This document shows positions 1 through 13,660 of a stretch of 64,000 bases of DNA, in pieces. The DNA is taken from IMG/VR virus record IMGVR_UViG_3300032307_000797. One strand, given 5' to 3'. This stretch comes from a virus. The translations under genes and the position numbers were made by a program. The notes beneath the pieces are model-generated. The model saw nothing but the letters and a program-made list of their open reading frames with translations. It was not told the origin of the DNA and did no database searches. Each line of letters begins with the position of its first letter. Position 1 is the first letter of the stretch.

Positions 1-3000
1 TAATACCATTACTTGTATTAAATGATGCACTTGTTGTGTAATAGTTTGTATCGGTAACAATCGACGCCAAATCAACACTACCACCAAACGCTGAACCAAC
101 TGCGGTAAACTCTAAAGTACTACCCGCCAATTGTACATTTGAAATATAATCATTTGTATCTGTTACAGTTTCGGTTGCCGACACAATACCTGTTACGTGA
201 CCATTTGAATCAAGTGTAATATCTTGAATATAAGTTCTACCTGAGTTGTTAACAGAAGATGCTGCTGAAATTGATGGGTGAGCGGTCAAGAATGAGGATG
301 CGTGATATCCATCAAGGGTATCGGCATCTAATCCACTTCCGCTTCCATCATTTGATGAGTGCCATACAGTTCCTCCGTTTACTGTTGCTGAACCACTTAC
401 CGCAAATGAACCACTCACAGTTGTTGTTGTACCACTAACCACAAGTGAATTCATTCCAAACGAACCCATCACAACTCTATCATCTGAGAATACCTCTAAT
501 ACAGGTAAACCTGAAATATCATTTACGGAGAATAATGAACCTGATAAACTATCTGTTACTGAGAATAACTGTCCAAGTGAACCTTGAACATCAAATACTA
601 AACTACCAGAACCATAAACTTGTAATGGAACTGTTGGTGTTGTTGTATCTGATTCACCATAACCAACTCTTACACCTCTAGCAACAGTTAAGTAACCGTT
701 GGTTGTAAGAGCCATCGCACCTTGTGCAGTGGAATGAGATGTATCTCCCCACCAAAAACCTCTATCGTCCTCATTATTGAATTGGAAGGTCATTGCGTAA
801 TCATTAAGACCACCATACGACACCCCACTTTCCATTCCTATAGTGTAGTTACTATCACTACCCCATAAACTTATTTTACTTCTTGTTGAAGAAGTTGTTG
901 TGTAATAAACCGGTGATGCAACCGCACTAAATGAAACACTATTTGATGTTCCTAAATCTTGGTTGATTGTGTATGAAGTAATATTACTTGCATTACCACT
1001 AATATTTCCGGTAATCTTTGAACCTGCAAGTGCGGTAATCCATGAAGGGTTACTATATGAACCGTTAGTGTAAACACCATTAGTTACAGTTGCCGAGTTT
1101 CCTGAGATATCAATACCCCAAGTACCACTTTCGTAAACATACTTAGCACCACCGCCGGTTTTTAGATAACCATCGGTTGCCAATAAGAATCTAACAGTAC
1201 CTGATTGTGAGAATTTAATTTCTTCATCATTATCATCTTGTGTGCCAATTTCTAAGTATGAACCTCCAGCCGCGTTACTTGTTGAAATGAATCTGATGAA
1301 TGCCGCGTCGGTGTTCAATCCCCATGTTAAACCTAAGTTTGAAGTTGCACCGAATGCAATATTACCGGTCATTGTACCTCCCGATAAAGGAAGTTTATTT
1401 CCGATTGATGTTGTTATGGTTGTTGCGAAGTTTGCATCATCACCTAACGCTGCCGCCAATTCATTTAAAGTATCAAGTGCGGTAGGTGCTCCATCAATTA
1501 AGTTCGTAATTTGTGTTTGAACGTAACCAGTGGTTGCATAACCTTGTGTTGCATGGTTACCCCAACCATATGCGGTATCCCAATTTGATTTGTTGTATCC
1601 AGTAATTGAAGTTGAACCTCCAAAGAAGGCACCAATTTCAGTTTCTGTATAATATCTACCATCAAGGGTTGATGAGTAGTTGTTTGTGTTTAAATATTGA
1701 TATTGAGTTGTATTTCCACCACCATAAATTTCACCTGTAGTGATGATACCGCCCGTTGAGTTGTTATCCAAATCAACTTGTGCCGGTGTTTCAGTCATTG
1801 CAGGGAAATTAGTTACATCTCCCGGGTCAACACCATCAGGTATCCAATCCTTAATAATCCATCCAGCATTTTGAATATCCTCAAGTAACCACGCTTTAAC
1901 TTGTGAGTTATCTAAATCAACATATACTTGAAGTAATGCACCATCATATGTTCCTCCATCTACAATACGAATGTATCTGAAAGGACTACCACCATAGAAT
2001 GAGTTAATTAAAACTGTAATATCCGAATAAGTACCAAAATGATGTGTTGCATAGAACACAGTCGATTGGTGATTACCACTTGATGTATCTCTCAATAAGA
2101 ATTTACCTGTTGCTCTATTCCCTGCGTTAACGGCAATTGTATACCAACCCGAATTTTTTGCAGTATCACTAGTTGCTTCGTATGGTAGATATCTGTCATC
2201 ATGGGTATGGTCGGTTGTTGAGAATCTACCGTCAATATCTACGGTGTATGTGTTACCATCATTACGAGAAAACGTAATTACACCGTTTGACGTATTAAAA
2301 GTTGCTCCCGTGGTGAAGTAATTTAAATAAGAACTAATGTAACCACTTGGGTTAGATGCTGCATAGAAATAACTTGAGTTATTACCATCTAAAGTATCGG
2401 CATCTAATCCCGAACCAGAACCATCAACTGTTAATAATTTTGATAGTACGTCGGCCGCAGTATATGAAGACGAATCTAAGTACTTACCGTCAATATCAAC
2501 AGTATATGTTCCTCCGTCATTTCTTGTATATGTTATAATTCCATTACTTGTATTAAACGTTGCACCTGTTGTGTAGTAATCGGTACTTGACGTTCCGTAT
2601 CTACCATCCAAATCAACAGTATATGTTCCTCCGTCATTTCTTGTGAAGGTAACAATACCATTTCCGGTATTGAATGTTGCACCTGTCGTGTAGTAGTTAG
2701 TGTTGTCAAGGAATGATGACAAATCAATATCACCCGTAAATGCACTACCTCCCGAACCTGTAAATCTAAGTGTTGAACCAACTAATTGTACATTATTGAT
2801 ATAATCATTGGTGTCAACAACTGTTTCAGTTGCGGTTGTTATTCCTGTAATATGTCCAAAACTATCTAATAGAATGTCTTGGATGTATGTTCTACCTGAG
2901 TTGTTTGAGGAACTTGCCGCGGTTACCGATGGGTGAGCCGTTAAGAAACGTCCGTCAATATCAACAGTATATGTTCCTCCGTCATTTCTTGTATACGTAA

Positions 3001-4965
3001 TAACACCATCAGATGTATTAAATGTTGCACCTGTGGTGTAGTAATCAGTGCTTGAGGTGCCATATCTACCATCCAAATCAACAGTGAATGTGTTACCATC
3101 ATTTCTTGTGAAAGTAACAACTCCATCACCCGTATTAAATGTCGCACCTGTTGTGTAATAGTTTGTGTCGGTCACAGTTTCACTTGCTGTGGTTATACCT
3201 GTAATATGACCAAAACTATCTAATAGAATATCTTGGATATAGGTACGTCCACTATTGTTAGAAGAAGATGCGGCAGATACTGATGGGTGAGCTGTTAACC
3301 ATCCGGGGTTGGTTGATACAGAACCGTCAGCCATTAAGAATTGTGATGATGTACCACCACTCTTAACGAATGAAGTTGCTCTCACGTTTCCGCTAACCGC
3401 CAATTTGTAACCCGATACTGGTACTATACCCATACCAATCTCACCTGTCGTTCCTAAGTAGAAATCATTTTGATTAAATCTACCCATTACCACGTGGTAA
3501 TCAGCAAATGCTTCGATAACAGGTAAACCTGAAATTGTATTAACCGAGAACAATGAGTTACTTAAATCATCGGTAACCGCAAATAATCTACCATTTGTAC
3601 CATCGACAGCGAATACCGTTGCCCCTGATACACTTTCGTAAACTGTTAATGTACCACCACTAATTGTAACATCGTTATTCGATGTTAAACCACTAACTGT
3701 AATTGATGTTGTAGTTGTGTTACCTCTTGCAGTAACTGTCGCAAGTGTGTCACTCTCAGAAGTTAGATATGAACCCGATGCTTGGTATCTACCATCCAAA
3801 TCAACAGTGAATGTGTTACCATCATTTCTTGTGAAAGTAACAACACCGTCTGAAGTATTGAACGTTGCGCCGGTTGTATAATTGTTTGTATCAACAACCG
3901 TTTCAGTTGCCGTTGTTATTCCCGTAATGTGTCCGTATTGGTCAAGTAGAATATCTTGGATATAAGTTCTACCTGAATTATTAGATGAACTTGCTGCTGT
4001 TACTGATGGGTGTGCAGTTAACCAACCCGGATTTGTAGAAACACTACCATCCGCCATTAAGAACTGTGTGGATAATCCACCTGTCTTAACGATTGTTGCA
4101 GCATTTAGAATTCCACCATTTTCAAAGTAAATTCTTGCAGTACCACCACCATCAACAAATTCTAATCTATCAAAACTTGTGTCTTTGTTGTAACGAATAG
4201 AATATCCGTTAAATGAACCACCACCACCAGCATACATTTGAATTGTTGTGAAACCGGTTGAGGTGTTGAGTTGACCTAATGTAAGTGTTGTATTGTTTTT
4301 ATATATGTTCAGGTCACCCGTCATGGTGTCTCCTGACTTAGAAACTTTGTTACCAATTGAAGTCGCAACGGTTGTTGCGAAGTTAGGGTCATCACCAAGT
4401 GCCGCTGCTAACTCATTAAGAGTATCTAATGTACTTGGAGCACTATCAATTAAATTGGTAATCTGTGTTTGGACATAACCGGTTGTGGCGTATCCATTTA
4501 ACGATGCACTTGTTAGGTATGTATTTGTGTCTAAAGAACCGTCACCTTTTAGGAACTGACTTGAGTTTCCTCCCGTAATAATAAATGAACGAGCTTCGAT
4601 GTCAGTTGTTGTCACATGACCTAAAGTTGTAACATCTTGTAAGGTTTGAGTTTCAGTATAACTTGTTAAGAAACGTCCATCAATATCAACTGTAACTGTG
4701 TTACCGTCATTTTTAGTTAATGTGATAATTCCATTACCGGTGTTGAAAGTTGCTCCCGTAACATACGTATTTGTATCAACAACCGTTTCAGTTGCTGTGG
4801 TCACACCTGTAACGTGACCGTTAGCATCTAATAAAATATCTTGAATGTAAGTTCTTCCTGAGTTGTTTGAAGAAGCTGCGGCAATAATAGTTGGGTGTTG
4901 TGTAAGGTATGTACTACCATCTAATGTACCATCCGCTTTAAGGAACTGATGTCCCGCACCACCTG
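1..4965 (-). repeat. Intragenic modular repeats of the giant fibre
   Basis: About 8 copies of YYTTGATFNTxxGvITFTRNDGxTxTVDxDGRY, 5 copies of HPSVxAASSxNNSGRTYIQDILLDxxGH and 2 copies of TLDTLxELAAALGDD. Exact DNA duplicates at 3063-3121/3786-3844 and 2487-2530/2952-2995. Confidence 0.9.
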
Positions 4966-6490
4966 TAACGATAAATGACCTTGCCGTAATATCGTTAGTT
5001 GTTACACTACCTAAAGTTGTTACATCTTGTAATGTTTGGGTTTCAGTGTAACCTGTTATAAATGAAGGTACGTTTGTTACGTAATTGTAATCAATTAAAC
5101 CTTGAATACCACCCGTAACCTTCAATGAACCAGTAATCTCGGTGTTACTAACGATTTTTACAACTGTTCCAGTATCATAGATGTTAGAGTTATCCAAGTG
5201 GTCACCCCCAACTGATTTTGGGATTCTTGTACTTGTTAAACCAACTTCTTGACCAAGAGAACCCGTGTTCCTTGGACCTGAAAGTAACATACCACCTGAG
5301 TAACTACTACCCGAAGCGTTCTGATAAATCCAGTGGTTATTTAAGGAATCCCATAGAAGGGATGCGGTTGCTAAGTGGGATTCTGAACCAGAATCAAATA
5401 CAACCAAACCACCAAATCTCTCAACCGGTTCAAATACGTTTGTATAAATGAACGGTCCTGTTAAGTTTAGGTTTGATGATGTTACATATACGAATGATGA
5501 GGTTCCAAGTACACTAATGTTTTGTGTAATCGTGATAGAACCACTAATAATTTGGTTACCGTTGATTGTTTGAGTACCAACAACATCCAATGAACCTGAT
5601 ACAACATAAGAACCACTAAGTGTGTTACTATTAACCCACTGACTTCCACTTCTAACAATTAAATTACTATCGGTAACCGAGGTGAAGTTTACATCATTCA
5701 ACTCACCTAAGAACTTATTAAGGTCGGGTCTGACCATAATGTCCACGTTGTTACCATATAATCTGGTTACCGCAGCAATTGTGACTTTAAGGTCGGGCGC
5801 TCCCGGTTCGGTAGATGTTAAACCACCAGGTCTTGTTGGGTCGGCATATAATAATGTACCTTCAAACCAAGTTTCTGCCGGGTCTTTAAGGTTGTTCGCC
5901 TCTAAATCTCCTGTATGTAAACCTCTAACCAAACCAAACCATGTGGCAAAACCAATATCATTTTGTCCAACATTTTCGGTTAAGATACCAACAAATAATT
6001 TTGATGGAACACTACCATCGGCAACCGCTCTAATAACATTTAATCTATCACCATGACTGACATCCAATGGGTCAACCATAACAACGGTACCATTGATTAA
6101 ATCAATACTATCTCCATTAAAAACAGGTGGGTAATATAATTCTTGTCCGATTTGTTGAGTGGAATTACCACCACCCATTCCTAAATCGAGAGTTCTTTCA
6201 TCAGGATTCCATGTTAATCTTCCAACTGCACCTACGATTGTGGAACCCGTATTAAAATCAATATAATCTGTACGCAGAGCACCCGTGAGTGAACCACTAA
6301 TAGAACCGGTAACTTTTAAACTACCTGTTACCGTATGGGTATCGGTTAATTGGTCACCAAGTTTGGCGTTCCCATGCACAGTTAATGAACCTGTCACGGT
6401 TTGAGAGCCGCTTACAGTAACTCCACCTTTAAAATTGGATGAACCCGATACGTGTAACGACCCCGTTACGTCTGCGTCAAATATTCTCAT
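1..6490 (-). CDS. Giant repetitive tail fibre/adhesin protein, partial (3' end beyond window), >2160 aa
   Basis: ATG at 6490 gives MRIFDADVTGSLHVSGSS...; the same frame reads DTNYYTTSASFNTSNGI at base 2. The ORF track lists nothing in this frame, consistent with no stop inside the window. Thr/Ser/Gly-rich with known fibre motifs (APSTLDTLNELAAALGDD, GSGLDADTLDG). Confidence 0.9.
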   Translation of the reverse strand, partial: MRIFDADVTGSLHVSGSSNFKGGVTVSGSQTVTGSLTVHGNAKLGDQLTDTHTVTGSLKVTGSISGSLTGALRTDYIDFNTGSTIVGAVGRLTWNPDERTLDLGMGGGNSTQQIGQELYYPPVFNGDSIDLINGTVVMVDPLDVSHGDRLNVIRAVADGSVPSKLFVGILTENVGQNDIGFATWFGLVRGLHTGDLEANNLKDPAETWFEGTLLYADPTRPGGLTSTEPGAPDLKVTIAAVTRLYGNNVDIMVRPDLNKFLGELNDVNFTSVTDSNLIVRSGSQWVNSNTLSGSYVVSGSLDVVGTQTINGNQIISGSITITQNISVLGTSSFVYVTSSNLNLTGPFIYTNVFEPVERFGGLVVFDSGSESHLATASLLWDSLNNHWIYQNASGSSYSGGMLLSGPRNTGSLGQEVGLTSTRIPKSVGGDHLDNSNIYDTGTVVKIVSNTEITGSLKVTGGIQGLIDYNYVTNVPSFITGYTETQTLQDVTTLGSVTTNDITARSFIVTGGAGHQFLKADGTLDGSTYLTQHPTIIAAASSNNSGRTYIQDILLDANGHVTGVTTATETVVDTNTYVTGATFNTGNGIITLTKNDGNTVTVDIDGRFLTSYTETQTLQDVTTLGHVTTTDIEARSFIITGGNSSQFLKGDGSLDTNTYLTSASLNGYATTGYVQTQITNLIDSAPSTLDTLNELAAALGDDPNFATTVATSIGNKVSKSGDTMTGDLNIYKNNTTLTLGQLNTSTGFTTIQMYAGGGGSFNGYSIRYNKDTSFDRLEFVDGGGTARIYFENGGILNAATIVKTGGLSTQFLMADGSVSTNPGWLTAHPSVTAASSSNNSGRTYIQDILLDQYGHITGITTATETVVDTNNYTTGATFNTSDGVVTFTRNDGNTFTVDLDGRYQASGSYLTSESDTLATVTARGNTTTTSITVSGLTSNNDVTISGGTLTVYESVSGATVFAVDGTNGRLFAVTDDLSNSLFSVNTISGLPVIEAFADYHVVMGRFNQNDFYLGTTGEIGMGIVPVSGYKLAVSGNVRATSFVKSGGTSSQFLMADGSVSTNPGWLTAHPSVSAASSSNNSGRTYIQDILLDSFGHITGITTASETVTDTNYYTTGATFNTGDGVVTFTRNDGNTFTVDLDGRYGTSSTDYYTTGATFNTSDGVITYTRNDGGTYTVDIDGRFLTAHPSVTAASSSNNSGRTYIQDILLDSFGHITGITTATETVVDTNDYINNVQLVGSTLRFTGSGGSAFTGDIDLSSFLDNTNYYTTGATFNTGNGIVTFTRNDGGTYTVDLDGRYGTSSTDYYTTGATFNTSNGIITYTRNDGGTYTVDIDGKYLDSSSYTAADVLSKLLTVDGSGSGLDADTLDGNNSSYFYAASNPSGYISSYLNYFTTGATFNTSNGVITFSRNDGNTYTVDIDGRFSTTDHTHDDRYLPYEATSDTAKNSGWYTIAVNAGNRATGKFLLRDTSSGNHQSTVFYATHHFGTYSDITVLINSFYGGSPFRYIRIVDGGTYDGALLQVYVDLDNSQVKAWLLEDIQNAGWIIKDWIPDGVDPGDVTNFPAMTETPAQVDLDNNSTGGIITTGEIYGGGNTTQYQYLNTNNYSSTLDGRYYTETEIGAFFGGSTSITGYNKSNWDTAYGWGNHATQGYATTGYVQTQITNLIDGAPTALDTLNELAAALGDDANFATTITTSIGNKLPLSGGTMTGNIAFGATSNLGLTWGLNTDAAFIRFISTSNAAGGSYLEIGTQDDNDEEIKFSQSGTVRFLLATDGYLKTGGGAKYVYESGTWGIDISGNSATVTNGVYTNGSYSNPSWITALAGSKITGNISGNASNITSYTINQDLGTSNSVSFSAVASPVYYTTTSSTRSKISLWGSDSNYTIGMESGVSYGGLNDYAMTFQFNNEDDRGFWWGDTSHSTAQGAMALTTNGYLTVARGVRVGYGESDTTTPTVPLQVYGSGSLVFDVQGSLGQLFSVTDSLSGSLFSVNDISGLPVLEVFSDDRVVMGSFGMNSLVVSGTTTTVSGSFAVSGSATVNGGTVWHSSNDGSGSGLDADTLDGYHASSFLTAHPSISAASSVNNSGRTYIQDITLDSNGHVTGIVSATETVTDTNDYISNVQLAGSTLEFTAVGSAFGGSVDLASIVTDTNYYTTSASFNTSNGI

Positions 6491-6514
6491 GTAAAGTTCT
6501 TATTATTTTTATAG

Positions 6515-6521
6515 ATAAATA
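6515..6521 (-). promoter_or_regulatory. Putative late promoter TATTTAT (one of ~14 copies)
   Basis: TATTTAT on the coding strand 25 nt upstream of the fibre ATG; recurs before many operon starts. Confidence 0.6.
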
Positions 6522-6585
6522 CTTCAAAACCCCAATCTTTATTCCTTTAAAAGTTATTTATTGATAGTATATTCTATAAATATGT

Positions 6586-7038
6586 ATGATACACTACGAG
6601 CTGTTCGAGAAGAACTTAAATCATATTGAAAATTCTGATGTTTTTGTAAAGGAGATTTTTGAGGTTACAGATTATGATATCCAAATCACAATCAATAACT
6701 TTAATTCACTTTACAAGTGGGATAAAATGTTCGATTTGGAAGAAACTGAAAGGAGATTGAAAGAGAATCACCGATTTTTTATCTTTTATCATAAAGATTT
6801 GGTGATTGGTCATTGCTGGGCTGACCCCGTATCAATGAACGAATCTAATATATACGTATATAATGTTTTTGTTGATAAAACAAAACATAATAAAGATGTG
6901 TGTGACAGTACCGTTTATTTTTCTAAACTTGCCACGATATTATTTTCTGAAGGTTATCAAGTAATTCATGCAGATGTTGATGATTGGCATAAAAAATCCC
7001 AATCATTTTGTTTGAGATTGGGATTTAAATCAATTTAG
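6586..7038 (+). CDS. GNAT-family N-acetyltransferase
   Basis: 150 aa; VIGHCW, YVYNVFVDK and the C-terminal DDWHKKSQSFCLRLGF pattern fit GNAT motifs; convergent overlap with the sulfotransferase. Confidence 0.7.
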   Translation: MIHYELFEKNLNHIENSDVFVKEIFEVTDYDIQITINNFNSLYKWDKMFDLEETERRLKENHRFFIFYHKDLVIGHCWADPVSMNESNIYVYNVFVDKTKHNKDVCDSTVYFSKLATILFSEGYQVIHADVDDWHKKSQSFCLRLGFKSI

Positions 7039-7654
7039 TATTTTTTGGTGGTTCAGGTAACCTGTATTTTTTGGTGTGATGAAATCTTTTTGAAATTATG
7101 TCAACATCAAACTCACATCCAACGTATTCACATAATTCTTTGAATGAATCGTTATCCCCATTATTCAAAATCAAATCTTCATATTTGAAGATTGGGTACC
7201 CATAATCAATTGAAATATTTTTAAGGGTTTTGTTCCATTCTATTATTTGATTTTGGTAATCGATAATTTTATCTTCGGTTACCGCGTCAATTTTATAGTA
7301 TTTTTGAGAATGCCAACCATATAAACTACCTAATTCAATATGGTAAACAAAGCTCTCTGCTTGTAATCTGGTGTTCTCTCGGTATAATAGAATGATTTTA
7401 TCGAATGTGGTAACATACCAATTCAATAATTCATCCATATCTTTAAACACGTTTGGTTTATGTTCTTTTAAGAACATGTCCTTTATTAATAGTTCGACAC
7501 TATTGGTGAAATCAATATTATTAAAATATCGATTTTTCCACATGTGTCGATTAAAGGGTTCGGCAATCGAATTTTTAATTTCTGTTAACTCCTTTAATGT
7601 GTAAAATAGATTGCTTGAGGATGTTCTTGGGTATGTCAGAATACATACCTTCAT
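7025..7654 (-). CDS. PAPS-dependent sulfotransferase (Stf0-like)
   Basis: 5'-PSB loop ILTYPRTSSSNL, EPFN, 3'-PB motif IILLYRENTRLQAES, and YEDL. Confidence 0.8.
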   Translation of the reverse strand: MKVCILTYPRTSSSNLFYTLKELTEIKNSIAEPFNRHMWKNRYFNNIDFTNSVELLIKDMFLKEHKPNVFKDMDELLNWYVTTFDKIILLYRENTRLQAESFVYHIELGSLYGWHSQKYYKIDAVTEDKIIDYQNQIIEWNKTLKNISIDYGYPIFKYEDLILNNGDNDSFKELCEYVGCEFDVDIISKRFHHTKKYRLPEPPKNTKLI

Positions 7655-7800
7655 TAACTCAAATGTTTATCCTTAATTTTTTGAATTACCGAATTAAACA
7701 AAGAATTAATTATTAATTTATCAGACACAGTTGTTTTTCTAACAATCGGCGTTCTTTCGGTTTCGGTATACGTTCTATTTTTATTTGTTTCTGTATTCAT
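7654..7800 (-). CDS. 48-aa hypothetical peptide (start moved to ATG 7800)
   Basis: MNTETNKNRTYTETERTP...; starts 11 nt after the upstream stop and is TAATG-coupled to the sulfotransferase. Confidence 0.6.
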   Translation of the reverse strand: MNTETNKNRTYTETERTPIVRKTTVSDKLIINSLFNSVIQKIKDKHLS

Positions 7801-7810
7801 ATCACTATTT

Positions 7811-9451
7811 TTATTTTTGTACTCTACAATCAGGACATTCTCCACCAAAAATCACTCCCACATCAGATTCTGGTTGAACAACACAACATACGAGTTCAGT
7901 ACAATAAAATGGGGGTAACCCCAATGACATACAATTGTCCATATCCCCACCGGTATATAATCCGCTAAAACCTAAACAGGGTTCCGCACATTGCCAGTAA
8001 TTAGGGAATCCCGAAAAATACCAGCATAAACATCTCGGGGCATTGTGTTGTATGATGAAAAATTCAGGAGTTTCTGTTGATTCATCCATTGTTAAATACA
8101 AATCAATATCCTCAACATCAATTGAGTATATATTTTCATTTGAAAACGTGTAAAAATTTGAGACAATTCCTCTGGTTTCAAATAAATTATTGTTTTTGTT
8201 TACTATGACTATTTCATCAGTATTTGTAATTTGATAAAAAGATTTGAATTTTAAGACACCATCTCTTTTTATTAAAAGTTTTGATTCATCGATGTCAGAA
8301 AATTTTAATCCATTATCCAATACGATATTTCTAAGCCACACATTCTCATTTTTGGTTGAAATAGATTGAATAGTTGTGGCGGAAATCGTACTCCCTGAAA
8401 ATACGTCTTCTGTGTTTCCGGTATACTGTGAAACATATGCTGCGGTATCGACATCATCTAACCCATATAGATTAATACTCATAAGAGAATCTCCGATTTC
8501 CAATTGTGATGGGGAAACCAAAGAACCGTCATTTTTAATAATTAAATTTGTACTATCGGAATTATATTCAATTCCAAGACTCTTTTTTTGATATTTCTGT
8601 AAATATTTTGGTCGTTCCCATGGTTGTATTTCTAAATTAGAGTCAACATCCACTGTTAAGTCAATACTACATGTATTTGTATGAATAAATGGGTCAATTA
8701 AATTTATTATATTTAATTCAGGACCACAAATTAAACCAACACTTCGATATGTTTTTAATTTACCATTTTCCAAATCGTTAGTGTTGATTACATATTCTTG
8801 TAATAACGTGTTAGGTGGTAAATTGGTTTTTAAATTACTCAATTGTTCTTGTGTATCTATCTTATACACTTTTGGGTATTCAGAATAATTTGTTGTTGGG
8901 AATCTTTGTTTTATAATATAATTTGGTAAATTACCATTATTCCTTACTGTGTCCCCAATCATATCAAAACCAAGTGATTCGTGATTTATATATGTTTTAG
9001 CGATTGCAGTGGGTGAGGAGTCATACAATAATTTTAAAAATTCAAAATTATCTTTGGCATATGTTTCATCAATCAAAGCCGTTGGGTCGTATGACTGTCT
9101 GATTATTAATTTATTTGGCGAATCAACGGTATTAGGGGTTACCTGATTTTCAAGTTCAACGACTTGTTTTGTAATTGTTAAACCACTATAATGTACATCA
9201 AAATATCTCCCAAACCCGAACAAGGTGTCATTTGGGTAATCAGGATTTATCGCCTTTACAGGACCCGTTGATAATAATATTAATTCAATTTCATTAATAT
9301 TATTTTCGGTAATAAAATTATCAAAATCAACTTTATTAAAGTATGGTTCGATTGAAATTGGGGCAGCAACGATACCAGTATTCAATTCCAATACTTTAAA
9401 GGAATTATCAACGTCTTTAACAAAATCAATCGCTATTAGTACACTTCTCAT
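7811..9451 (-). CDS. Circularly permuted ATP-grasp ligase + Hint (intein-like) domain + C-terminal Cys-rich peptide
   Basis: IDF...KVLELNT at residues 8-25, then YIIKQRFP and LLQEYV. Hint-like segment from IIKNDGSLVSPSQLEIGD to IYSIDVED...IIQHN (N470), followed by a 76-aa tail with 10 Cys. Confidence 0.75.
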   Translation of the reverse strand: MRSVLIAIDFVKDVDNSFKVLELNTGIVAAPISIEPYFNKVDFDNFITENNINEIELILLSTGPVKAINPDYPNDTLFGFGRYFDVHYSGLTITKQVVELENQVTPNTVDSPNKLIIRQSYDPTALIDETYAKDNFEFLKLLYDSSPTAIAKTYINHESLGFDMIGDTVRNNGNLPNYIIKQRFPTTNYSEYPKVYKIDTQEQLSNLKTNLPPNTLLQEYVINTNDLENGKLKTYRSVGLICGPELNIINLIDPFIHTNTCSIDLTVDVDSNLEIQPWERPKYLQKYQKKSLGIEYNSDSTNLIIKNDGSLVSPSQLEIGDSLMSINLYGLDDVDTAAYVSQYTGNTEDVFSGSTISATTIQSISTKNENVWLRNIVLDNGLKFSDIDESKLLIKRDGVLKFKSFYQITNTDEIVIVNKNNNLFETRGIVSNFYTFSNENIYSIDVEDIDLYLTMDESTETPEFFIIQHNAPRCLCWYFSGFPNYWQCAEPCLGFSGLYTGGDMDNCMSLGLPPFYCTELVCCVVQPESDVGVIFGGECPDCRVQK

Positions 9452-9720
9452 ATTAATGTTTTTTCACTCTTTGGTAAATATGTCTCACCATCTACTTCTA
9501 CCCATTTTTTTAATGGGCAGGGGTTATTTGATTTGGTGTAAACTTTTTTACCTATTGGACATCCACATTCCCCACAAAAAGCCGACCATTTTTGATTAAA
9601 AATCTTCTTCATCGAGGGACAAGTTTCACAAATAGATGTTCTTTTATCGGCCAACTCCGTTTCCTGTAATGTTGGGTTATATGATGAGACCCAAGCGGTT
9701 ACTATTTCTTTTACATCCAT
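9448..9720 (-). CDS. Small 6-Cys metal-binding protein (DUF6171-like)
   Basis: RxxICxxC, CxxCGC and CPxxKW pattern. Confidence 0.65.
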   Translation of the reverse strand: MDVKEIVTAWVSSYNPTLQETELADKRTSICETCPSMKKIFNQKWSAFCGECGCPIGKKVYTKSNNPCPLKKWVEVDGETYLPKSEKTLI

Positions 9721-9728
9721 ATCAATAT

Positions 9729-9735
9729 ATAAATA
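9729..9735 (-). promoter_or_regulatory. Putative late promoter TATTTAT for the 9720-7025 operon
   Basis: Motif lies 9 nt upstream of ATG 9720. Confidence 0.55.
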
Positions 9736-9736
9736 G

Positions 9737-9952
9737 TTAATCGGTCTTTTTGAGACCGTAGTTTATGTACTTATACCAAAACCGTTCATGGAAGAAATAA
9801 AGGATTGGTTTTAGTACTAATTCCCCTACACCAACCATTGCGGCCCATTTAACGGGTAATCCAGCACCGATGGTTAACCCCACGGTTGTTAGTGTACCTA
9901 ATATTCTATAAGTAATTGTTTTAGCTATGTGTCTCTTTACCAGTGGCATCAA
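9737..9952 (-). CDS. DUF2061-family small membrane protein
   Basis: RHIAKTITYRILGT...LYFFHERFW signature. Confidence 0.8.
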   Translation of the reverse strand: MMPLVKRHIAKTITYRILGTLTTVGLTIGAGLPVKWAAMVGVGELVLKPILYFFHERFWYKYINYGLKKTD

Positions 9953-10286
9953 TCTCTCCTTTTCTTATTTTGGTTCCACTTATCTCACCAATCTCAGTTG
10001 GTGGTTCGTGGTAAATTACATCATACCCAACACCTCTACCGTAATTAACGGATTCAACATCGGGGATAATTGATACAAATAGTTTATCCCAATTCTCCAT
10101 AAAGAATGGGGTATTCATCAAATCCATAAGGACTTGGTGTGGTGATTTTGGATTATTTTCATCAACCTGAACATCTCTAATCGCAACCCAACAGTTCTTT
10201 CCTTTGTCCATTTGTTGTCTGATAAGCCATTCATGACCAGAATGCCAATTCTGCCATCGTCCAATAAACATTGCATATTTTTTCAT
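9921..10286 (-). CDS. HxGH nucleotidyltransferase (cytidylyltransferase-like; candidate minimal ATP sulfurylase)
   Basis: FIGRWQNWHSGH and ISGTKIR motifs; coupled to APS kinase. Confidence 0.75.
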   Translation of the reverse strand: MKKYAMFIGRWQNWHSGHEWLIRQQMDKGKNCWVAIRDVQVDENNPKSPHQVLMDLMNTPFFMENWDKLFVSIIPDVESVNYGRGVGYDVIYHEPPTEIGEISGTKIRKGEIDATGKETHS

Positions 10287-10714
10287 GAGAATAGTTTTTT
10301 GTATAGTTCAGTTAATGTGTCGTTTATCATTCCGTTATTATCCAATTCAATAAAATTCTTCTCGGGTTCCTCAAAATTCTTCACATGGTATTGGATTTTT
10401 TCACCAACATCTTCTCTCCTAACCAATATTTCAATTACAGGATTTTCTGATTTGAATTGTTCTCTAAGTTCCCTATATGGACATACCATGGATATCACGA
10501 CATTGAAATTTTTTTCATTACAAAAACGTGCAATAGTAAATGCTCGTGAGATATTCTCAATGCGTCCTTTTTCGGAATAATCTGTATTAGGGAAAATCTC
10601 CCTCAATTCATCACCGTCAATCATGATGGTGCGATGGTGTCCAATAGTGGAGAGTAGTTTGTTTGCTATGGTTGTTTTACCCGAACCGGGTTGACCTATG
10701 AAAAGATATATCAT
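10283..10714 (-). CDS. cysC: Adenylyl-sulfate (APS) kinase
   Basis: P-loop GQPGSGKTT, IDGDELR, RIENISR, SMVCPY, FEEP. Confidence 0.8.
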   Translation of the reverse strand: MIYLFIGQPGSGKTTIANKLLSTIGHHRTIMIDGDELREIFPNTDYSEKGRIENISRAFTIARFCNEKNFNVVISMVCPYRELREQFKSENPVIEILVRREDVGEKIQYHVKNFEEPEKNFIELDNNGMINDTLTELYKKLFS

Positions 10715-10737
10715 AGGTAAAGTATAAAGAAAAAATA

Positions 10738-10857
10738 CTAATGATTGTAGATAAATGGGTCTCTTTTTTTAAGTTCCTCAAGTTTCTTCTTGAATCTCTT
10801 TTTCCTCTGTCTTTCTTCCCAAAGGTTCTTAAACCAATTAACGATTTTTTTAATCAT
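10738..10857 (-). CDS. 39-aa basic peptide ending KKRDPFIYNH (not in ORF track)
   Basis: ATGA overlap with the carbamoyltransferase stop; translates MIKKIVNWFKNLWEERQRKKRFKKKLEELKKRDPFIYNH. Confidence 0.7.
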   Translation of the reverse strand: MIKKIVNWFKNLWEERQRKKRFKKKLEELKKRDPFIYNH

Positions 10858-12524
10858 GACTTTCTTATTAAATAGTTCCCCATAACCAGTATGTCCATTT
10901 CTGTATCTAAAAATGTGTCCATTGCATCCTGTGGGGTTAATACCATTGTTTTATCCTTAACATTAAAAGATGTGTTCAATAAGATTGGGTAACCTGATTG
11001 ATTCTCATATTCTTTCAATAATCTATAGATTGGGTTAAATGGTGTAACAGATTGTATTCTTGCACTCCCGTCCACATGAGTAATTGATGGTAGTTTATCT
11101 CTATATTTTTCTTTTACTTTTACCACCTGATTCATATAGGGAACAAATCCACCGTATTCAAAATATTTCTTTTGGTCCTCAAAGGTCACCATCGGAGCGA
11201 ACGGACGGAATCCTTCTCTTTTTTTAATTACCTTATTGATTTTGTCCTTCATACCGGGTAATGTTGGGTTTGCCAATATTGACCTGTTACCTAATGCTCT
11301 AGCTCCAAATTCTATTTTCCCTTGGTACCACCCAATTACTTTACCTGATACTATCTCTTCGGAAACTTTCCTATTAAGATTATTTGTTAAATGATATTTT
11401 TTATATGTTATGTCCTTAGTTTTTGTAATTACTCTAAGGATATCAACTTCACTATAATCGGGACCGAGAAATGCGTCTGTATGAACTTTAACAGGACGAC
11501 CAACGGAGTGGAAATAATTCAGACATGCACCAATACAAGAACCAGCATCTGACGGTGCCGGTGGTATCCACAATCTTTTGAAATTCGTATTATCCAATAT
11601 CTTACCATTAGCCGTACCGTTATAAGCACATCCACCGGCTAGTGCGAGGTTTGTTGAATCGGTAAACAATTCAATATCTTTCAGGACTTCAAATAATATA
11701 GATTCGTATTTTTCCTGTACCGCAGCGGCAATATCCATGTGGTCCTGAGTAATCGGTTCTTCAGGTAACCTATTTTCAATACCCATTAATTCAATCAATT
11801 CCTCATTGAACATCAGACAATCTCTATCCCAAGAAAAGTAAACCATATTGGTTTTTAAAGATGCACAATTATGAACAATCAATTGATTAATTTTTTCACG
11901 GTATTTTTCGGGATTACCATAAGGAGCCAAACCCATCAGTTTATATTCACCTTCATTTGGTTTGAATCCGATAAAGGATGTCATTGCTGAGTAAAATAAA
12001 CCAACGGAATGTGGGTAAACAGATAACGGTACAATCTTAAAGTCCCCTTTATTAATGTAACCAACCGACATGGTTTCCCATTCACCGACACCATCTACCG
12101 ATAAGATAACCGCATCGTTAAATGGTGAAGAATAATATGAATAAAATATATGTGAATCGTGATGTTTCGAAAAAAATACTTTATCCGATATTTTCTTTAA
12201 TTCTTTTTTTAATTTCCAATGATTAATCTTTGTCTTGAATAAACTTTTTGATACCTCAGATGGACACTCTAAGAAGTTTTTGAAGAAAGTGTTGTTAACT
12301 CTATCAGATTTTAACTTTGGGTCCTCATAAAAACAAACGGTTTCAATCTCGTTTTTTTTAATTCTATATTTGTCAAAAATGTATTTTAATGCGTTTACCG
12401 GAAATCTATTATCATGTTTTATACCTGTGAATTTTTCTTCTTCGCAAGCAAAAATCAGTTGACCCTTTTTAAAGAGACAAACTGATGAGTCGTGATAATA
12501 TGCTGATATTCCAATTACGTACAT
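10854..12524 (-). CDS. O-carbamoyltransferase (NodU/CmcH family)
   Basis: YHDSS, HHDSH, DGVGE, EFGARALGNRS, KREGFRPFAP, HVDGSARIQ, LLNTSFN. Confidence 0.95.
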   Translation of the reverse strand: MYVIGISAYYHDSSVCLFKKGQLIFACEEEKFTGIKHDNRFPVNALKYIFDKYRIKKNEIETVCFYEDPKLKSDRVNNTFFKNFLECPSEVSKSLFKTKINHWKLKKELKKISDKVFFSKHHDSHIFYSYYSSPFNDAVILSVDGVGEWETMSVGYINKGDFKIVPLSVYPHSVGLFYSAMTSFIGFKPNEGEYKLMGLAPYGNPEKYREKINQLIVHNCASLKTNMVYFSWDRDCLMFNEELIELMGIENRLPEEPITQDHMDIAAAVQEKYESILFEVLKDIELFTDSTNLALAGGCAYNGTANGKILDNTNFKRLWIPPAPSDAGSCIGACLNYFHSVGRPVKVHTDAFLGPDYSEVDILRVITKTKDITYKKYHLTNNLNRKVSEEIVSGKVIGWYQGKIEFGARALGNRSILANPTLPGMKDKINKVIKKREGFRPFAPMVTFEDQKKYFEYGGFVPYMNQVVKVKEKYRDKLPSITHVDGSARIQSVTPFNPIYRLLKEYENQSGYPILLNTSFNVKDKTMVLTPQDAMDTFLDTEMDILVMGNYLIRKS

Positions 12525-13660
12525 TATTTCTTTGAACCATAGTAGATTGTGTCTTTATTAATTCTTTCTCTCCAAGGGTCCAAAACCACACTTCCACTCG
12601 GGAAGACAGTATCATTAAAAACATTTCTATGTCCTAATAAATAAATAGCAGGACCATTCATTTCATCGTACCTAACCTCATTAATGAAACTACCTATGAG
12701 AATGGAATATGACCCGTCAATATATTCGACACCGGGTTTATAGCTCTTACCCATAATAACCACAGGTAATCCATGTTCGATAGATAAATCGATTAATCGA
12801 TTGGCAATGTTTCTTGCTTGTTTTTCCCTTGAGGTCATGATTGCGTCAAATAAATCATAACCCAAACCCAATCTTTGTGCCATATATCTCAATGCTATAT
12901 TATCACGTGGGTGACAAGAACCTCCGTCTCCCATCCCTGCTTTCATATACGCAGGTCCCATGATTCTGTATGTACTTCTTTCAAGTGCACCGGTCACAAC
13001 ATCGGTGTTCATATTTCCATTTAGTTCTGCAACATCTTGAATCATATTGACAATTGAAATCTTTGCCGATATGAATGTGTTGTAGAATATTTTAATTGCC
13101 TCGGCGTCGTCCCATGTACCGATTTCATATCTTGTCCATGGTGATATAATTGTTTGATAGAAATCCTTTAAGATTTTGGCATCTGTTGTTTCAGAACCAT
13201 CTTTGGTTCCTATGATTACCATCTCGGGATTGACCATGTCGTGTTTAACCGTACCCATGGCAATCAAATATGGATTATAAATGAATCTATAATTCTGCAC
13301 CAATGGAATAAATTCTCTACGAGTTGTTCCGGGTAGTACAGTTGAGATTAACACAACTAACTGTTGTTTGTTAGTGTAATTGTTTACCTCAGAAAGAATG
13401 TTCTTAACAATTGTATAATCAAAATCCTTTGGTGGTAAATGCGATGTTGCCTGTTTACCATCATATAATGGGTCATGTGGGGTTGGGACCGCAATAAAGA
13501 TTAAATCCTTATCCTTACAAACCTCCTCAATTGTTTTTACCATTTTAAAATTTGATGGAGTCACTTCTTTAACGTCGTAACCCTCAACAAAGTATTTTTC
13601 CGCCATAACCTCAGCAACATCCTTACCAAGTTTACCGACACCAATAAATCCTATTTTCAT
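12524..13660 (-). CDS. ugd: UDP-glucose/GDP-mannose dehydrogenase family
   Basis: GVGKLG Rossmann motif, IAVPTP, STVLPGT, AEAIKIFYNTF, catalytic GGSCHPRD. Confidence 0.9.
   Translation of the reverse strand: MKIGFIGVGKLGKDVAEVMAEKYFVEGYDVKEVTPSNFKMVKTIEEVCKDKDLIFIAVPTPHDPLYDGKQATSHLPPKDFDYTIVKNILSEVNNYTNKQQLVVLISTVLPGTTRREFIPLVQNYRFIYNPYLIAMGTVKHDMVNPEMVIIGTKDGSETTDAKILKDFYQTIISPWTRYEIGTWDDAEAIKIFYNTFISAKISIVNMIQDVAELNGNMNTDVVTGALERSTYRIMGPAYMKAGMGDGGSCHPRDNIALRYMAQRLGLGYDLFDAIMTSREKQARNIANRLIDLSIEHGLPVVIMGKSYKPGVEYIDGSYSILIGSFINEVRYDEMNGPAIYLLGHRNVFNDTVFPSGSVVLDPWRERINKDTIYYGSKK

What the first reader, a model, noticed from the sequence alone, without database searches (positions are those of the whole stretch)
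7811..8566. Hint domain appears wired for C-terminal cleavage only
Seen: block A reads YNSDSTNLIIKNDG with no Cys at position 1. The block B region (GLKFSDIDESKLLI) has no TxxH. Block F (IYSIDVED) and the terminal His-Asn (8047-8042) are intact, and the +1 residue is Ala. Known: His-Asn drives Asn cyclisation and C-terminal cleavage, while splicing needs residue-1 and +1 nucleophiles; polymorphic-toxin Hint domains release C-terminal effectors. Inference: the product is the free peptide APRCLCW...CPDCRVQK (10 Cys, up to 5 disulfides or a metal cluster) with a new N-terminal amine that the ATP-grasp or GNAT could use.
Basis: partly seen in the sequence, partly recalled or inferred. Interest (0 to 1): 0.8.

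Follow-up and report, generated by a model that had tools for sequence, protein, structure and literature searches.

The report
Phage ligase-Hint fusion, cleavage-only Hint
An uncultured large phage encodes one protein that joins an ATP-dependent amide ligase, an intein-like (Hint) domain that has kept only the residues needed to cut at its own C-terminal end, and a fast-changing ten-cysteine tail ending in a conserved lysine; I found no paper describing this layout, and it may be a new way for viruses to release or attach small peptides.

Summary
Window 7811-9451 (-) is one 546-aa gene. Residues 296-470 fold as a Hint domain whose first and last residues superpose on residue 1 and the terminal Asn of solved inteins. 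The parts needed for N-terminal chemistry and splicing are missing across the family: Cys1, block B Thr/His, block F Asp and a +1 nucleophile. His469 (220/238) and Asn470 (234/238) are the only columns at 90% or more outside the N-terminal ligase domain. That domain (1-290) is a permuted ATP-grasp fold like YgiC, glutathionylspermidine synthetase and eukaryotic glutathione synthetase.

After His-Asn, relatives carry Cys-rich tails, tails of 3-7 residues, tails capped by a Peptidase_S74 domain, or canonical Hint domains. The one shared feature is a lysine near the end (185/234). So the lysine, probably a ligase substrate site, looks more important than the peptide as an effector.

The gene sits in a conserved triad with a 90-aa six-Cys protein and a 48-aa peptide ending KHL. 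Cleavage itself is inferred, not shown.

This scan has met the same family in at least eight other genomes, with concordant follow-up readings. I found no paper on it.

The parts
8582..9451 (-). N-terminal permuted ATP-grasp-like amide ligase domain (residues 1-290)
   Evidence: AF2 model of the domain has pLDDT 91.5 and pTM 0.88. Foldseek gives probability 1.0 to YjfC/YgiC, homoglutathione and glutathione synthetases and glutathionylspermidine synthetase. VIA Z is 8.4-7.3 to the same set, aligned from residue 1; classical ATP-grasp enzymes (RimK, LysX/ArgX, TTLL, Ddl) align only from about residue 50. D9, E22, N24, R118, D128, K181 and R236 are each kept in 235-237 of 238.
8567..8581 (-). linker between the ligase and Hint domains (residues 291-295; low confidence over 287-293)
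   Evidence: pLDDT is under 50 for residues 287-293. The columns are variable and gapped.
8042..8566 (-). degenerate Hint domain (residues 296-470) with Tyr at position 1
   Evidence: See for the fold. HHalign against canonical Hint domains found at the C-termini of distant family members gives probability 98%, E 2.6e-13. There is no Cys in 288-470 of the window protein.
8042..8047 (-). His469-Asn470, predicted Asn-cyclisation site; the scissile bond is N470|A471
   Evidence: His in 220/238 and Asn in 234/238. These are the only columns at 90% or more outside the ligase domain. N470 superposes on the terminal Asn of solved inteins.
8102..8128 (-). block F equivalent YSIDVEDID (residues 442-450)
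   Evidence: E447 is kept in 200/238. D450 is Asp in 191/238 and His in 25. By my alignment to the canonical V-Y-N-I-S-V-E-D-T-H-N-Y motif of family members, D450 falls at the block F His and S443 (variable) at the block F Asp.
7814..8041 (-). Cys-rich tail (residues 471-546; 10 Cys; ends RVQK); the stop codon is 7811-7813
   Evidence: Identity between relatives drops much faster here than in the core. Short tails have an even Cys count in 164 of 174 cases, and a Lys lies in the last four residues in 185 of 234.
9448..9720 (-). 90-aa six-Cys (zinc-ribbon-like) partner gene; its stop overlaps the target start (ATGA)
   Evidence: phrog_13558, E 3.4e-9. A homologue lies next to the target in 58 of 60 loci, upstream or downstream. 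C31, C34, C49, C52, C54 and C68 are invariant, and the C-terminus is conserved as K-(T/S)-(L/I/F)-(I/L/V).
7654..7800 (-). 48-aa small protein ending IKDKHLS, 10 nt after the target's stop codon
   Evidence: A homologue lies directly after the target in 49 of 60 loci. Consensus: M..E.NKN..Y....K....K.KHL.
7025..7654 (-). 209-aa gene, possibly sulfotransferase-like (weak)
   Evidence: No Pfam hit for the window copy. The gene in the same position next to distant homologue P0139 carries a faint Sulfotransfer_2 hit. An APS-kinase gene lies at 10283-10714.
6586..7038 (+). GNAT acetyltransferase, opposite strand
   Evidence: PF00583, E 1.7e-4, 22.3 bits against a cutoff of 20.7. It is present in the closer relatives' loci L005, L060 and L061 but not in L001, L006 or L007.

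Best explanation
The gene encodes a self-processing three-part phage protein.

(1) Residues 1-290 are an ATP-grasp amide ligase of the permuted glutathione-synthetase / glutathionylspermidine-synthetase type, with its metal- and phosphate-binding residues intact.

(2) Residues 296-470 are a Hint domain that can no longer make an N-terminal (thio)ester or splice. It has Tyr at position 1, no block B Thr/His, no block F Asp, no Cys and no +1 nucleophile. It keeps the step-3 set: the terminal Asn, the penultimate His, and an acidic or His residue at the block F His position. I infer that Asn470 cyclises to a succinimide and breaks the N470|A471 bond once per molecule. The ligase stays joined to the Hint domain and the tail is freed.

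(3) The tail is a swappable module, here 76 residues with 10 Cys, most likely disulfide-paired. Its only family-wide feature is a lysine near the C-terminus. I infer that this lysine (or the nearby C-terminal carboxylate) is where the fused ligase acts, and that Hint cleavage then releases the modified tail.

The 90-aa six-Cys protein and the 48-aa KHL peptide, always encoded next to the gene, are probable partners or co-substrates.

Shown: folds, residue conservation, architecture variants and gene linkage. Inferred: cleavage, ligase substrate and biological role.
For: Hint fold and boundaries:
- Foldseek probability 1.0.
- VIA Z 15-16.6, rmsd about 2 A. Model 296..470 aligns to 1..440 of the Mtu RecA intein, 1..172 of the RadA intein and 1..159 of the DnaE intein.
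- HHalign to canonical Hints gives 98%.

Loss of steps 1-2 residues:
- Position 296 is Y in 149/238 and never a conserved nucleophile.
- The block B Thr column (387) is V/L/I/T/G and the block B His column (390) is S/A/T/G, with no His.
- The block F Asp column (443) is variable.
- +1 is A 49, P 46, K 25 and so on.

Retention of step-3 residues:
- H469 220/238, N470 234/238, D450 191 Asp plus 25 His.
- H469 and N470 are as conserved as the ligase catalytic columns.
- The review PMC4031507 names His F:13, His G:6 and Asn G:7 as the step-3 residues, and Cys1, Thr B:7, His B:10 and Asp F:4 as the N-terminal set.
- A-type BIL domains with His-Asn cleave their C-terminus without ligation (PMC7765530).

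Ligase:
- The E22-x-N24 and D9 pattern matches the residues (R139, D141, E163, N165) reported as conserved around the ATP-binding site of the structural neighbour Cp1B, where alanine substitutions abolished or attenuated activity (PMC12568646).

Tail:
- 183 short Cys-rich forms, 10 with S74, 31 with canonical Hint and 10 other, including tails of 3-7 aa.
- Lys lies in the last four residues in 185/234, against 1.5% Lys elsewhere in the tails.
- In S74 forms the Lys sits just before the S74 'SD' start.

Module:
- Gene orders Z-T-P in 23 loci, T-P-Z in 24, T-Z in 11 and T-P in 2, out of 60.
Against: - No experiment or proteomic datum shows cleavage.
- The block F His is Asp in most members, and its competence in Asn cyclisation is untested.
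- In many inteins, Asn cyclisation is slow unless the N-terminal steps have happened (PMC4031507).
- The AF2 model gives the tail moderate confidence (pLDDT 59-82), so it could be a permanently attached domain.
- S74 domains usually cap trimeric fibres that stay intact upstream.
- The ligase substrate is unknown, and no conserved acidic partner for the lysine exists inside the tail.
Confidence: 0.6

Rival explanations
1. Released bioactive peptide. The Hint domain frees the 76-residue disulfide-rich peptide, which acts on its own as a toxin, bacteriocin-like factor, metal binder or signal, as pretoxin-HINT domains free toxin modules.
For: - A constant core carries highly variable C-terminal modules that are exchanged by recombination. 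Against P0002 the core has 0 nonsynonymous and 3 synonymous codon changes in 470 codons, while the tail has 10 and 8 in 76, and the locus is a mosaic.
- Cys counts are even.
- The Hint domain lies directly before the variable module, as in polymorphic toxins (PMC3113570; PMC3482391).
Against: - Members with tails of 3-7 residues, or with only canonical Hint domains after His-Asn, keep the same core.
- No toxin family or immunity-like gene was noted in the conserved triad.
- There is no export signal logic for a C-terminal fragment made in the cytoplasm.
- The fused ligase and the conserved lysine are left unexplained.
Confidence: 0.2
2. No cleavage. The Hint domain is a structural spacer or docking module, His-Asn is kept for folding or binding, and the whole 546-aa protein works intact, for example as a virion-associated or assembly enzyme with a Cys-rich anchoring domain.
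For: - All N-terminal catalytic residues are gone, so decay of activity is plausible.
- The tail is modelled as a small folded unit.
- S74-capped relatives resemble fibre proteins.
- The gene lies beside giant fibre genes in the window (2..6490), L005 and L003.
Against: - In a domain with about 30% mean identity, His-Asn at the exact structural C-terminus are the only two columns at 90% or more.
- Hedgehog Hint domains fold without a terminal His-Asn, so the pair is not a fold requirement (established knowledge; PMC4031507).
- The tail, not the Hint domain, is what recombines.
Confidence: 0.15
3. Atypical splicing intein (class 2 or class 3) or a mobile intein remnant.
For: Class 2 and class 3 inteins also lack a position-1 nucleophile (PMC2807308; PMC4031507).
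Against: - Class 3 needs a block F Cys, and class 2 needs a +1 Cys plus Thr B:7, His B:10 and Asp F:4. The window Hint has no Cys at all and +1 is Ala.
- The domain does not interrupt a conserved host protein. It links two different modules in every member.
Confidence: 0.02

Closest known systems
A-type bacterial intein-like (BIL) domains (Amitai et al. 2003; Dassa et al. 2004; summarised in PMC7765530)
   Same: Hint fold: the C. thermocellum BIL 2lwy matches at Z 15.1, rmsd 2.1 A. Both have a conserved C-terminal His-Asn, cleave the C-terminus by Asn without needing a +1 nucleophile, and sit next to hypervariable protein regions.
   Different: A-type BILs keep the position-1 Cys and block B residues and also cleave or rearrange at the N-terminus. 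Here these are lost family-wide, and the upstream partner is an ATP-grasp ligase. No BIL or Hint Pfam model detects the window domain.
Pretoxin-HINT (PF07591) modules of bacterial polymorphic toxins (PMC3113570, PMC3482391)
   Same: The Hint domain is placed directly before a variable C-terminal module that is exchanged by recombination, with predicted autoproteolytic release.
   Different: There is no toxin domain, no immunity gene, no secretion or stalk module and a phage context. Tails can be 3-7 residues. PF07591 matches only the extra canonical Hints of distant relatives, not this domain.
Tetrahymena BUBL BIL-ubiquitin-like loci (PDB 6tmm/6y75; PMC8616854)
   Same: The BIL2 fold matches at Z 15.1. 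Hint chemistry is used there to dispense a small domain and form a Lys isopeptide. Relatives with degenerate Hint, Cys-rich module and canonical Cys1 Hint (P0139, P0156, P0165) mirror a layout of a small module flanked by Hint domains.
   Different: BUBL is ATP-independent and uses Cys1 thioesters. The window protein has no Cys1 Hint and carries an ATP-grasp ligase instead. Conjugation here is only a hypothesis.
YgiC/YjfC peptide-spermidine ligases, glutathionylspermidine synthetase and eukaryotic (homo)glutathione synthetases; ligase Cp1B of E-64 biosynthesis
   Same: These are the best structural neighbours of residues 1-290. They share the strand order starting with the E-x-N strand, and they join a carboxylate (often a peptide C-terminus) to an amine via an acyl phosphate (PMC12568646).
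   Different: At 290 residues the domain is much smaller than these 370-600-aa enzymes. Sequence identity is about 10%, TM about 0.45 and Z about 8. It is fused to a Hint domain, and its substrates are unknown.
RiPP ATP-grasp systems (graspetides/microviridins) and carrier-protein ligases (LysX/ArgX with LysW)
   Same: An ATP-grasp enzyme is encoded with small peptides or small zinc-ribbon proteins whose termini are conserved. LysX/ArgX and a RiPP ATP-grasp appear among weaker structural matches (Z 5.7-4.5).
   Different: Here the candidate substrate is fused to the enzyme through a self-cleaving domain. There is no leader-core logic, and the tail has no conserved Asp/Glu-Lys/Thr pairs.

Membership tests
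Hint (Hedgehog/intein) superfamily | Hint beta-fold with N- and C-termini brought together | tested here: met
   Foldseek probability 1.0, TM up to 0.81. VIA Z 16.6, rmsd 1.9 A over 141 aligned residues to 6tyy; 104 chains reach Z >= 8.
Hint (Hedgehog/intein) superfamily | Sequence-profile similarity to recognised Hint domains | tested here: met
   HHalign of the family's 288-473 profile against canonical Hints from distant family members gives probability 98%, E 2.6e-13. Those canonical Hints pass Pfam Intein_splicing/PT-HINT cut-offs. Pfam itself finds nothing in the window protein.
Splicing intein, class 1 | Cys/Ser/Thr at position 1 | tested here: not met
   Y296. The column is Y 149, P 17, F 12, G 12 and so on of 238.
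Splicing intein, class 1 | Block B Thr-x-x-His | tested here: not met
   The aligned columns are I387 (V/L/I/T/G) and S390 (S 134, A, T, G; no His).
Splicing intein, class 1 | Cys/Ser/Thr at +1 | tested here: not met
   A471. Family counts: A 49, P 46, K 25, Y 14, V 14, and C only 10 (those being Cys1 of a following Hint).
Splicing intein, class 1 | Penultimate His and terminal Asn (block G) | tested here: met
   H469 220/238 and N470 234/238. N470 aligns with the terminal Asn of solved inteins.
Splicing intein, classes 2 and 3 | +1 Cys with intact block B and F:4 Asp (class 2), or block F Cys with the W-C-T motif (class 3) | tested here: not met
   There is no Cys in 288-470. The F:4 column (443) is S/T/E/K/N, and +1 is Ala.
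A-type BIL domain | N-terminal Cys/Ser nucleophile together with C-terminal His-Asn | tested here: not met
   His-Asn is present but the N-terminal nucleophile is absent. Hence 'works like the C-terminal half-reaction of an A-type BIL', not a member.
Pretoxin-HINT / polymorphic toxin | PF07591 match, C-terminal toxin domain and adjacent immunity gene | tested here: not met
   No Pfam match at E <= 1. The tail matches no family. The conserved neighbours are a six-Cys protein and a 48-aa peptide present regardless of tail type. Whether either acts as an immunity protein was not tested.
ATP-grasp superfamily (glutathione-synthetase / GspS-like permuted branch) | ATP-grasp fold with permuted strand order | tested here: met
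   Foldseek probability 1.0 to 7uk6, 3kaj, 2ioa, 7uk8 and 1m0w. VIA Z is 8.4-7.3 for these from residue 1, while classical ATP-grasps align from about residue 50 at Z 5-6.6. Z about 8 is moderate, but the top rows are nearly all ATP-grasp enzymes.
ATP-grasp superfamily (glutathione-synthetase / GspS-like permuted branch) | Mg/ATP-binding E-x-N motif and conserved Lys/Arg | tested here: met
   E22 and N24 are kept in 237/238, D9 in 235, and R118, K181 and R236 in 237. The assignment to ligand contacts is by analogy with Cp1B and was not modelled.
ATP-grasp superfamily (glutathione-synthetase / GspS-like permuted branch) | ATP-dependent carboxylate-amine ligation | not testable with these tools
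   Needs an enzyme assay.
Graspetide-type RiPP | Leader-core precursor with conserved Lys/Thr/Ser-Asp/Glu pairs cross-linked by the ATP-grasp | tested here: not met
   The invariant tail columns are only Cys and the terminal Lys. There is no conserved acidic column.
Peptidase_S74 intramolecular chaperone | C-terminal S74 domain | tested here: not met
   Absent from the window protein. It is present in relatives such as P0131 (23.2 bits against a cutoff of 22) and weakly in P0243.

The most novel reading that the evidence does not exclude
A single-use, self-delivering tagging enzyme. The fused ATP-grasp ligase joins a carboxylate to the conserved lysine (or C-terminus) of its own tail. Candidate carboxylates are the conserved C-terminus of the 48-aa KHL peptide, of the six-Cys protein, of the K-x-L-I-ended enzymes of the neighbouring glycan island, or of a virion protein. 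Asn cyclisation in the crippled Hint domain then cuts the conjugate free. This would be a phage-encoded, ubiquitin-like or carrier-peptide-like ligation system in which enzyme, release switch and tag are one polypeptide. In relatives, the S74 or Cys1-Hint caps would be alternative ways of exposing or activating the same end.
Probability: 0.15. Interest if true: 0.9.

Novelty: new variant of a known kind. Interest (0 to 1): 0.72.

Why it matters
Natural Hint domains are known to splice, to transfer cholesterol, or to cleave at both ends (BILs). This family seems to have been pared down to the Asn-lyase half-reaction alone and wired between an ATP-dependent ligase and an exchangeable peptide module.

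It is large: 245 clusters at 50% identity. It looks essentially phage-restricted and carries no informative annotation (only 'hypothetical protein'). If cleavage and ligation are confirmed, three things would follow:
- a new logic for making or attaching small disulfide-rich peptides in viruses;
- a natural, nucleophile-free C-terminal-cleavage Hint scaffold of interest for protein engineering;
- a handle on the function of two ubiquitous small phage proteins that travel with it.

Tried and rejected
- Pfam, NCBIfam, PHROGs and PDB sequence searches of the whole protein found nothing meaningful.
- tblastn against 50,697 deposited phage genomes found no match, so no cultured relative is on hand.
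- No whole genome is held for the window.
- A GTDB genome scan gave only three MAG contigs, so there is no clear cellular or prophage home.
- BFVD Foldseek found phage Hint proteins but, judging only from low whole-model TM scores, none that looked like the same ligase-Hint layout.
- Complex prediction of the full protein with the 90-aa six-Cys neighbour gave no verdict (scores 0.01 and 0.20, mark 0.32). It says nothing either way.
- Diversity-generating retroelement idea for the variable tail: blastn found no template-like repeat of the tail DNA anywhere in the 64-kb window. The tail shows raised synonymous as well as nonsynonymous change, which points to recombination rather than targeted mutagenesis.
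- Zinc-cluster reading of the tail: His is 0.4% of tail residues, and Cys counts of 6 and 10 (97 of 174 short tails) are not multiples of four. Disulfides are therefore the better guess, but this was not tested.
- Alignment A4 was too divergent for the search for related loci; A1 worked.
- Four literature searches on this topic, two of them aimed at the ligase-Hint combination itself, found no description of it.
- I could not measure distances between D450, H469 and N470, because model coordinates are not exposed.
Full report
THE GENE. Window 7811..9451 on the minus strand is a single 546-aa ORF. It lies in a long run of tightly packed same-strand genes. Those genes include an SbcC-like nuclease (phrog_77), a virion structural protein hit, LamG-type proteins, a carbamoyltransferase, a UDP-sugar dehydrogenase, an APS-kinase and an open-ended ORF of more than 2,160 aa at 2..6490. 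No whole genome is held for the window. The same protein is recorded on a 318-kb contig, and its relatives sit on IMG/VR viral contigs of up to 310 kb. I read the source as an uncultured large tailed phage.

CHECK OF THE OBSERVATION.
- YNSDSTNLIIKNDG begins at Y296 (window 8566).
- GLKFSDIDESKLLI begins at 381.
- IYSIDVED begins at 441.
- H469-N470 are encoded at 8047-8042.
- A471 is the +1 residue.
- The last 76 residues hold 10 Cys.

An AF2 model built on 25 homologues (pLDDT 80) matches solved Hint domains:
- Foldseek gives probability 1.0.
- VIA-align gives Z 16.6, rmsd 1.9 A over 141 residues to the Hedgehog Hint domain.
- VIA-align gives Z 15-16 to mini-inteins and to a bacterial intein-like domain.
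- Model 296..470 aligns to residues 1..440 of the Mtu RecA intein, 1..172 of the RadA intein and 1..159 of the DnaE intein. So Y296 occupies intein position 1 and N470 the terminal Asn.

Independently, a profile of this region aligns with canonical Hint domains found at the C-termini of distant family members at 98% probability, E 2.6e-13.

WHICH CATALYTIC RESIDUES SURVIVE. The family is large. It has 140 clusters at 90% identity and 245 at 50% identity; those that carry any source name are called 'hypothetical protein'. I aligned 238 members of at least 440 aa. The review PMC4031507 lists two residue sets. Cys/Ser1, Thr B:7, His B:10, Asp F:4 and a +1 Cys/Ser/Thr serve the acyl shift and transesterification. 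His F:13, His G:6 and Asn G:7 serve Asn cyclisation. The family compares as follows:

| Position | Window residue | Family column |
|---|---|---|
| 1 | Y296 | Tyr 149/238, otherwise P, F, G, L |
| B:7 | I387 | V/L/I/T/G |
| B:10 | S390 | S/A/T/G, no His |
| F:4 | S443 | S/T/E/K/N |
| +1 | A471 | A 49, P 46, K 25 and other, mostly non-nucleophilic residues |
| F:13 | D450 | Asp 191, His 25 |
| G:6 | H469 | His 220/238 |
| G:7 | N470 | Asn 234/238 |

The window's Hint domain has no Cys at all. Across the whole alignment, the columns at 90% or more are 16 in the N-terminal domain (besides the start Met) plus H469 and N470, and nothing else.

His own refutation criterion (His-Asn not conserved) is not met. 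Class 2 and class 3 splicing are excluded because they need a +1 Cys or a block F Cys. Cleavage itself remains an inference. One caveat from the same review: in many inteins, Asn cyclisation is slow until the N-terminal steps have occurred.

THE N-TERMINAL DOMAIN. Folded alone with 38 homologues, residues 1-290 give pLDDT 91.5.
- Foldseek's best matches (probability 1.0) are E. coli YjfC and YgiC, homoglutathione and glutathione synthetases and glutathionylspermidine synthetase.
- A Foldseek-independent scan gives the same set at Z 8.4-7.3, aligned from residue 1.
- Classical ATP-grasp enzymes (TTLL, LysX/ArgX, RimK, Ddl) align only from about residue 50, at Z 5-6.6.

This fits the sequence. 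The protein opens with the strand that carries the E-x-N motif (FKVLELNT, E22/N24), which in ordinary ATP-grasp enzymes lies near the C-terminus. D9, E22, N24, R118, D128, K181 and R236 are kept in 235-237 of 238 members. They resemble the R/D...E-x-N set reported as conserved around the ATP-binding site of the structural neighbour Cp1B, where alanine substitutions abolished or attenuated activity (PMC12568646). I conclude that this is a probably active amide ligase of the permuted branch. Its known members join a carboxylate, often a peptide C-terminus, to an amine. Z about 8 and TM about 0.45 are moderate, so the branch assignment is less firm than the superfamily assignment.

THE TAIL, AND WHY THE PEPTIDE-EFFECTOR READING IS TOO NARROW. 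What follows His-Asn differs widely between members that share the same core:
- 183 have short Cys-rich tails of 21-95 residues.
- 10 have a Cys-rich stretch followed by a Peptidase_S74 intramolecular-chaperone domain.
- 31 have one to three canonical Cys1 Hint domains that pass Pfam cut-offs. In several of these the Cys1 comes directly after His-Asn.
- A few have tails of only 3-7 residues (YKA, RCAYK, AKEEV, KPKQPKK, PAPPPKL).

Short tails are 15% Cys, and the Cys count is even in 164 of 174 cases. His is 0.4% of tail residues. This favours disulfides over zinc sites and suggests a role outside the reducing cytoplasm.

The only feature common to all tail classes is a lysine near the end. It lies within the last four residues in 185 of 234 members, against 1.5% Lys elsewhere in the tails. 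In the S74 forms it sits immediately before the 'SD' that starts the S74 domain. Most canonical-Hint forms end ...HNK. A system that keeps its core while the "cargo" shrinks to three residues is hard to explain as a toxin releaser. It is easier to explain if the lysine-bearing end is a substrate site for the fused ligase and the Hint cut releases the product. That step is my inference.

TAIL EVOLUTION. Identity to the window protein falls much faster in the tail than in the core. Examples are 88/76/53% and 77/68/46% for the ligase, Hint and tail parts. Against the closest relative with DNA on hand (L060), the 470 core codons show 3 synonymous and 0 nonsynonymous changes. The 76 tail codons show 8 synonymous and 10 nonsynonymous changes. 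Mismatch density along 6 kb shows a mosaic of blocks at about 0% and about 10% divergence, with one boundary just after the His-Asn codons. There is no template-like repeat of the tail in the window. The tail is therefore exchanged by recombination rather than diversified by a retroelement. This rests on one pair.

CONSERVED GENE MODULE. In 60 loci (some near-duplicates), a 90-110-aa protein lies next to the gene in 58. It has six invariant Cys (C-x2-C...C-x2-C-x-C...C-P) and a conserved K-(T/S)-(L/I/F)-(I/L/V) C-terminus. A 37-50-aa peptide ending K-H-(L/M/T/S) follows the gene in 49 loci. Two gene orders occur: Z-T-P in 23 loci and T-P-Z in 24. In 11 further loci (T-Z) a gap separates target and Z (about 126-182 nt in eight of them, 1,248 nt in three); the short gaps could hold a divergent copy of the peptide gene. 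Adjacency kept through rearrangement argues for a functional link. A complex prediction with the six-Cys protein gave no verdict and is not evidence either way. The APS-kinase, carbamoyltransferase and possible sulfotransferase recur near a 32%-identical homologue (L003). They are absent from other loci. The GNAT gene is limited to the closer relatives. These are clade-specific neighbours, not part of the core module.

COMPARISON WITH KNOWN SYSTEMS.
- The Hint part works like the C-terminal half-reaction of A-type BIL domains (His-Asn, cleavage without ligation; PMC7765530).
- It is placed like pretoxin-HINT domains (PMC3113570, PMC3482391).
- It fails defining features of both: no N-terminal nucleophile, no PF07591 match, no toxin or immunity pair.
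- Relatives with degenerate Hint, Cys-rich module and Cys1 Hint recall the Tetrahymena BUBL arrangement, in which BIL domains dispense a small domain onto lysines (PMC8616854).

I found no paper on a ligase-Hint fusion. The family has no hit in deposited phage genomes and only three MAG contigs among 185,579 species genomes.

EARLIER NOTES OF THIS SCAN. The same family has been reported from at least eight other genomes, with follow-up verdicts that match mine: ligase, C-terminal-only Hint, and a fast-evolving Cys peptide with one lysine. I reached the fold, conservation and lysine results before reading them. One of those notes mentioned tagged modifying enzymes, which led me to look at C-termini in the neighbouring island.

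VERDICT. Best reading, confidence 0.6: a self-cleaving ligase-Hint-tail protein that cuts at N470|A471, whose conserved tail lysine is the likely ligase target. Interest is 0.72. I class it as a new variant of known kinds (Hint autoprocessing and ATP-grasp ligation) in an undescribed combination.

Noticed in passing
window 7025-18214 (-): Several proteins of the adjoining modification island end in a similar C-terminal motif...NTKLI (7025-7654)...EKTLI (9448-9720)...KNKSI (14328-15065)...KDGLI (15990-16781) and ...TDRLI (16778-18214). Four ORFs end in -LI here, and none of the other roughly 60 minus-strand ORFs I listed ends that way. It may be a shared C-terminal tag.
   Followed up: partly
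window 2..6490 (-): An open-ended ORF of more than 2,160 aa with no Pfam hit in its last 1,000 residues, directly downstream of the module. L005 has a >4,000-aa ORF in the same position, and L003 has a >1,300-aa Peptidase_S74 protein nearby. These are probably giant fibres.
   Followed up: no
window 9737-10714 (-): A DUF2061-like 71-aa membrane protein, a 121-aa protein with no Pfam hit and a short APS-kinase (143 aa, PF01583 E 5e-13) recur in the same order beside the 32%-identical homologue in L003. This could be a phage PAPS-supply set.
   Followed up: partly
P0097-P0115 (about 680 aa; e.g. L007:8001-10046): A subgroup carries an insert of about 130 residues inside the Hint domain, after block A and before block B (alignment columns about 390-550). 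Its nature is unknown.
   Followed up: no
P0021 (672 aa): One close relative has a roughly 125-residue extra segment inside the Cys-rich tail (…YFYVSNSGASAYTINGAS…FHGSMQGEIIV…), with no Pfam hit.
   Followed up: no
window 6466-12451 versus L060: The two near-identical phage genomes form a mosaic of blocks at about 0% and about 10% divergence. The divergent blocks are the carbamoyltransferase at 10950-12000, the tail at 7800-8000 and the 6600-7650 region.
   Followed up: partly
L001:1562-4966, L006:12141-12533: Relatives' loci encode HSP20, Cpn10 and Cpn60 chaperones and a SAM synthetase close to the module.
   Followed up: no
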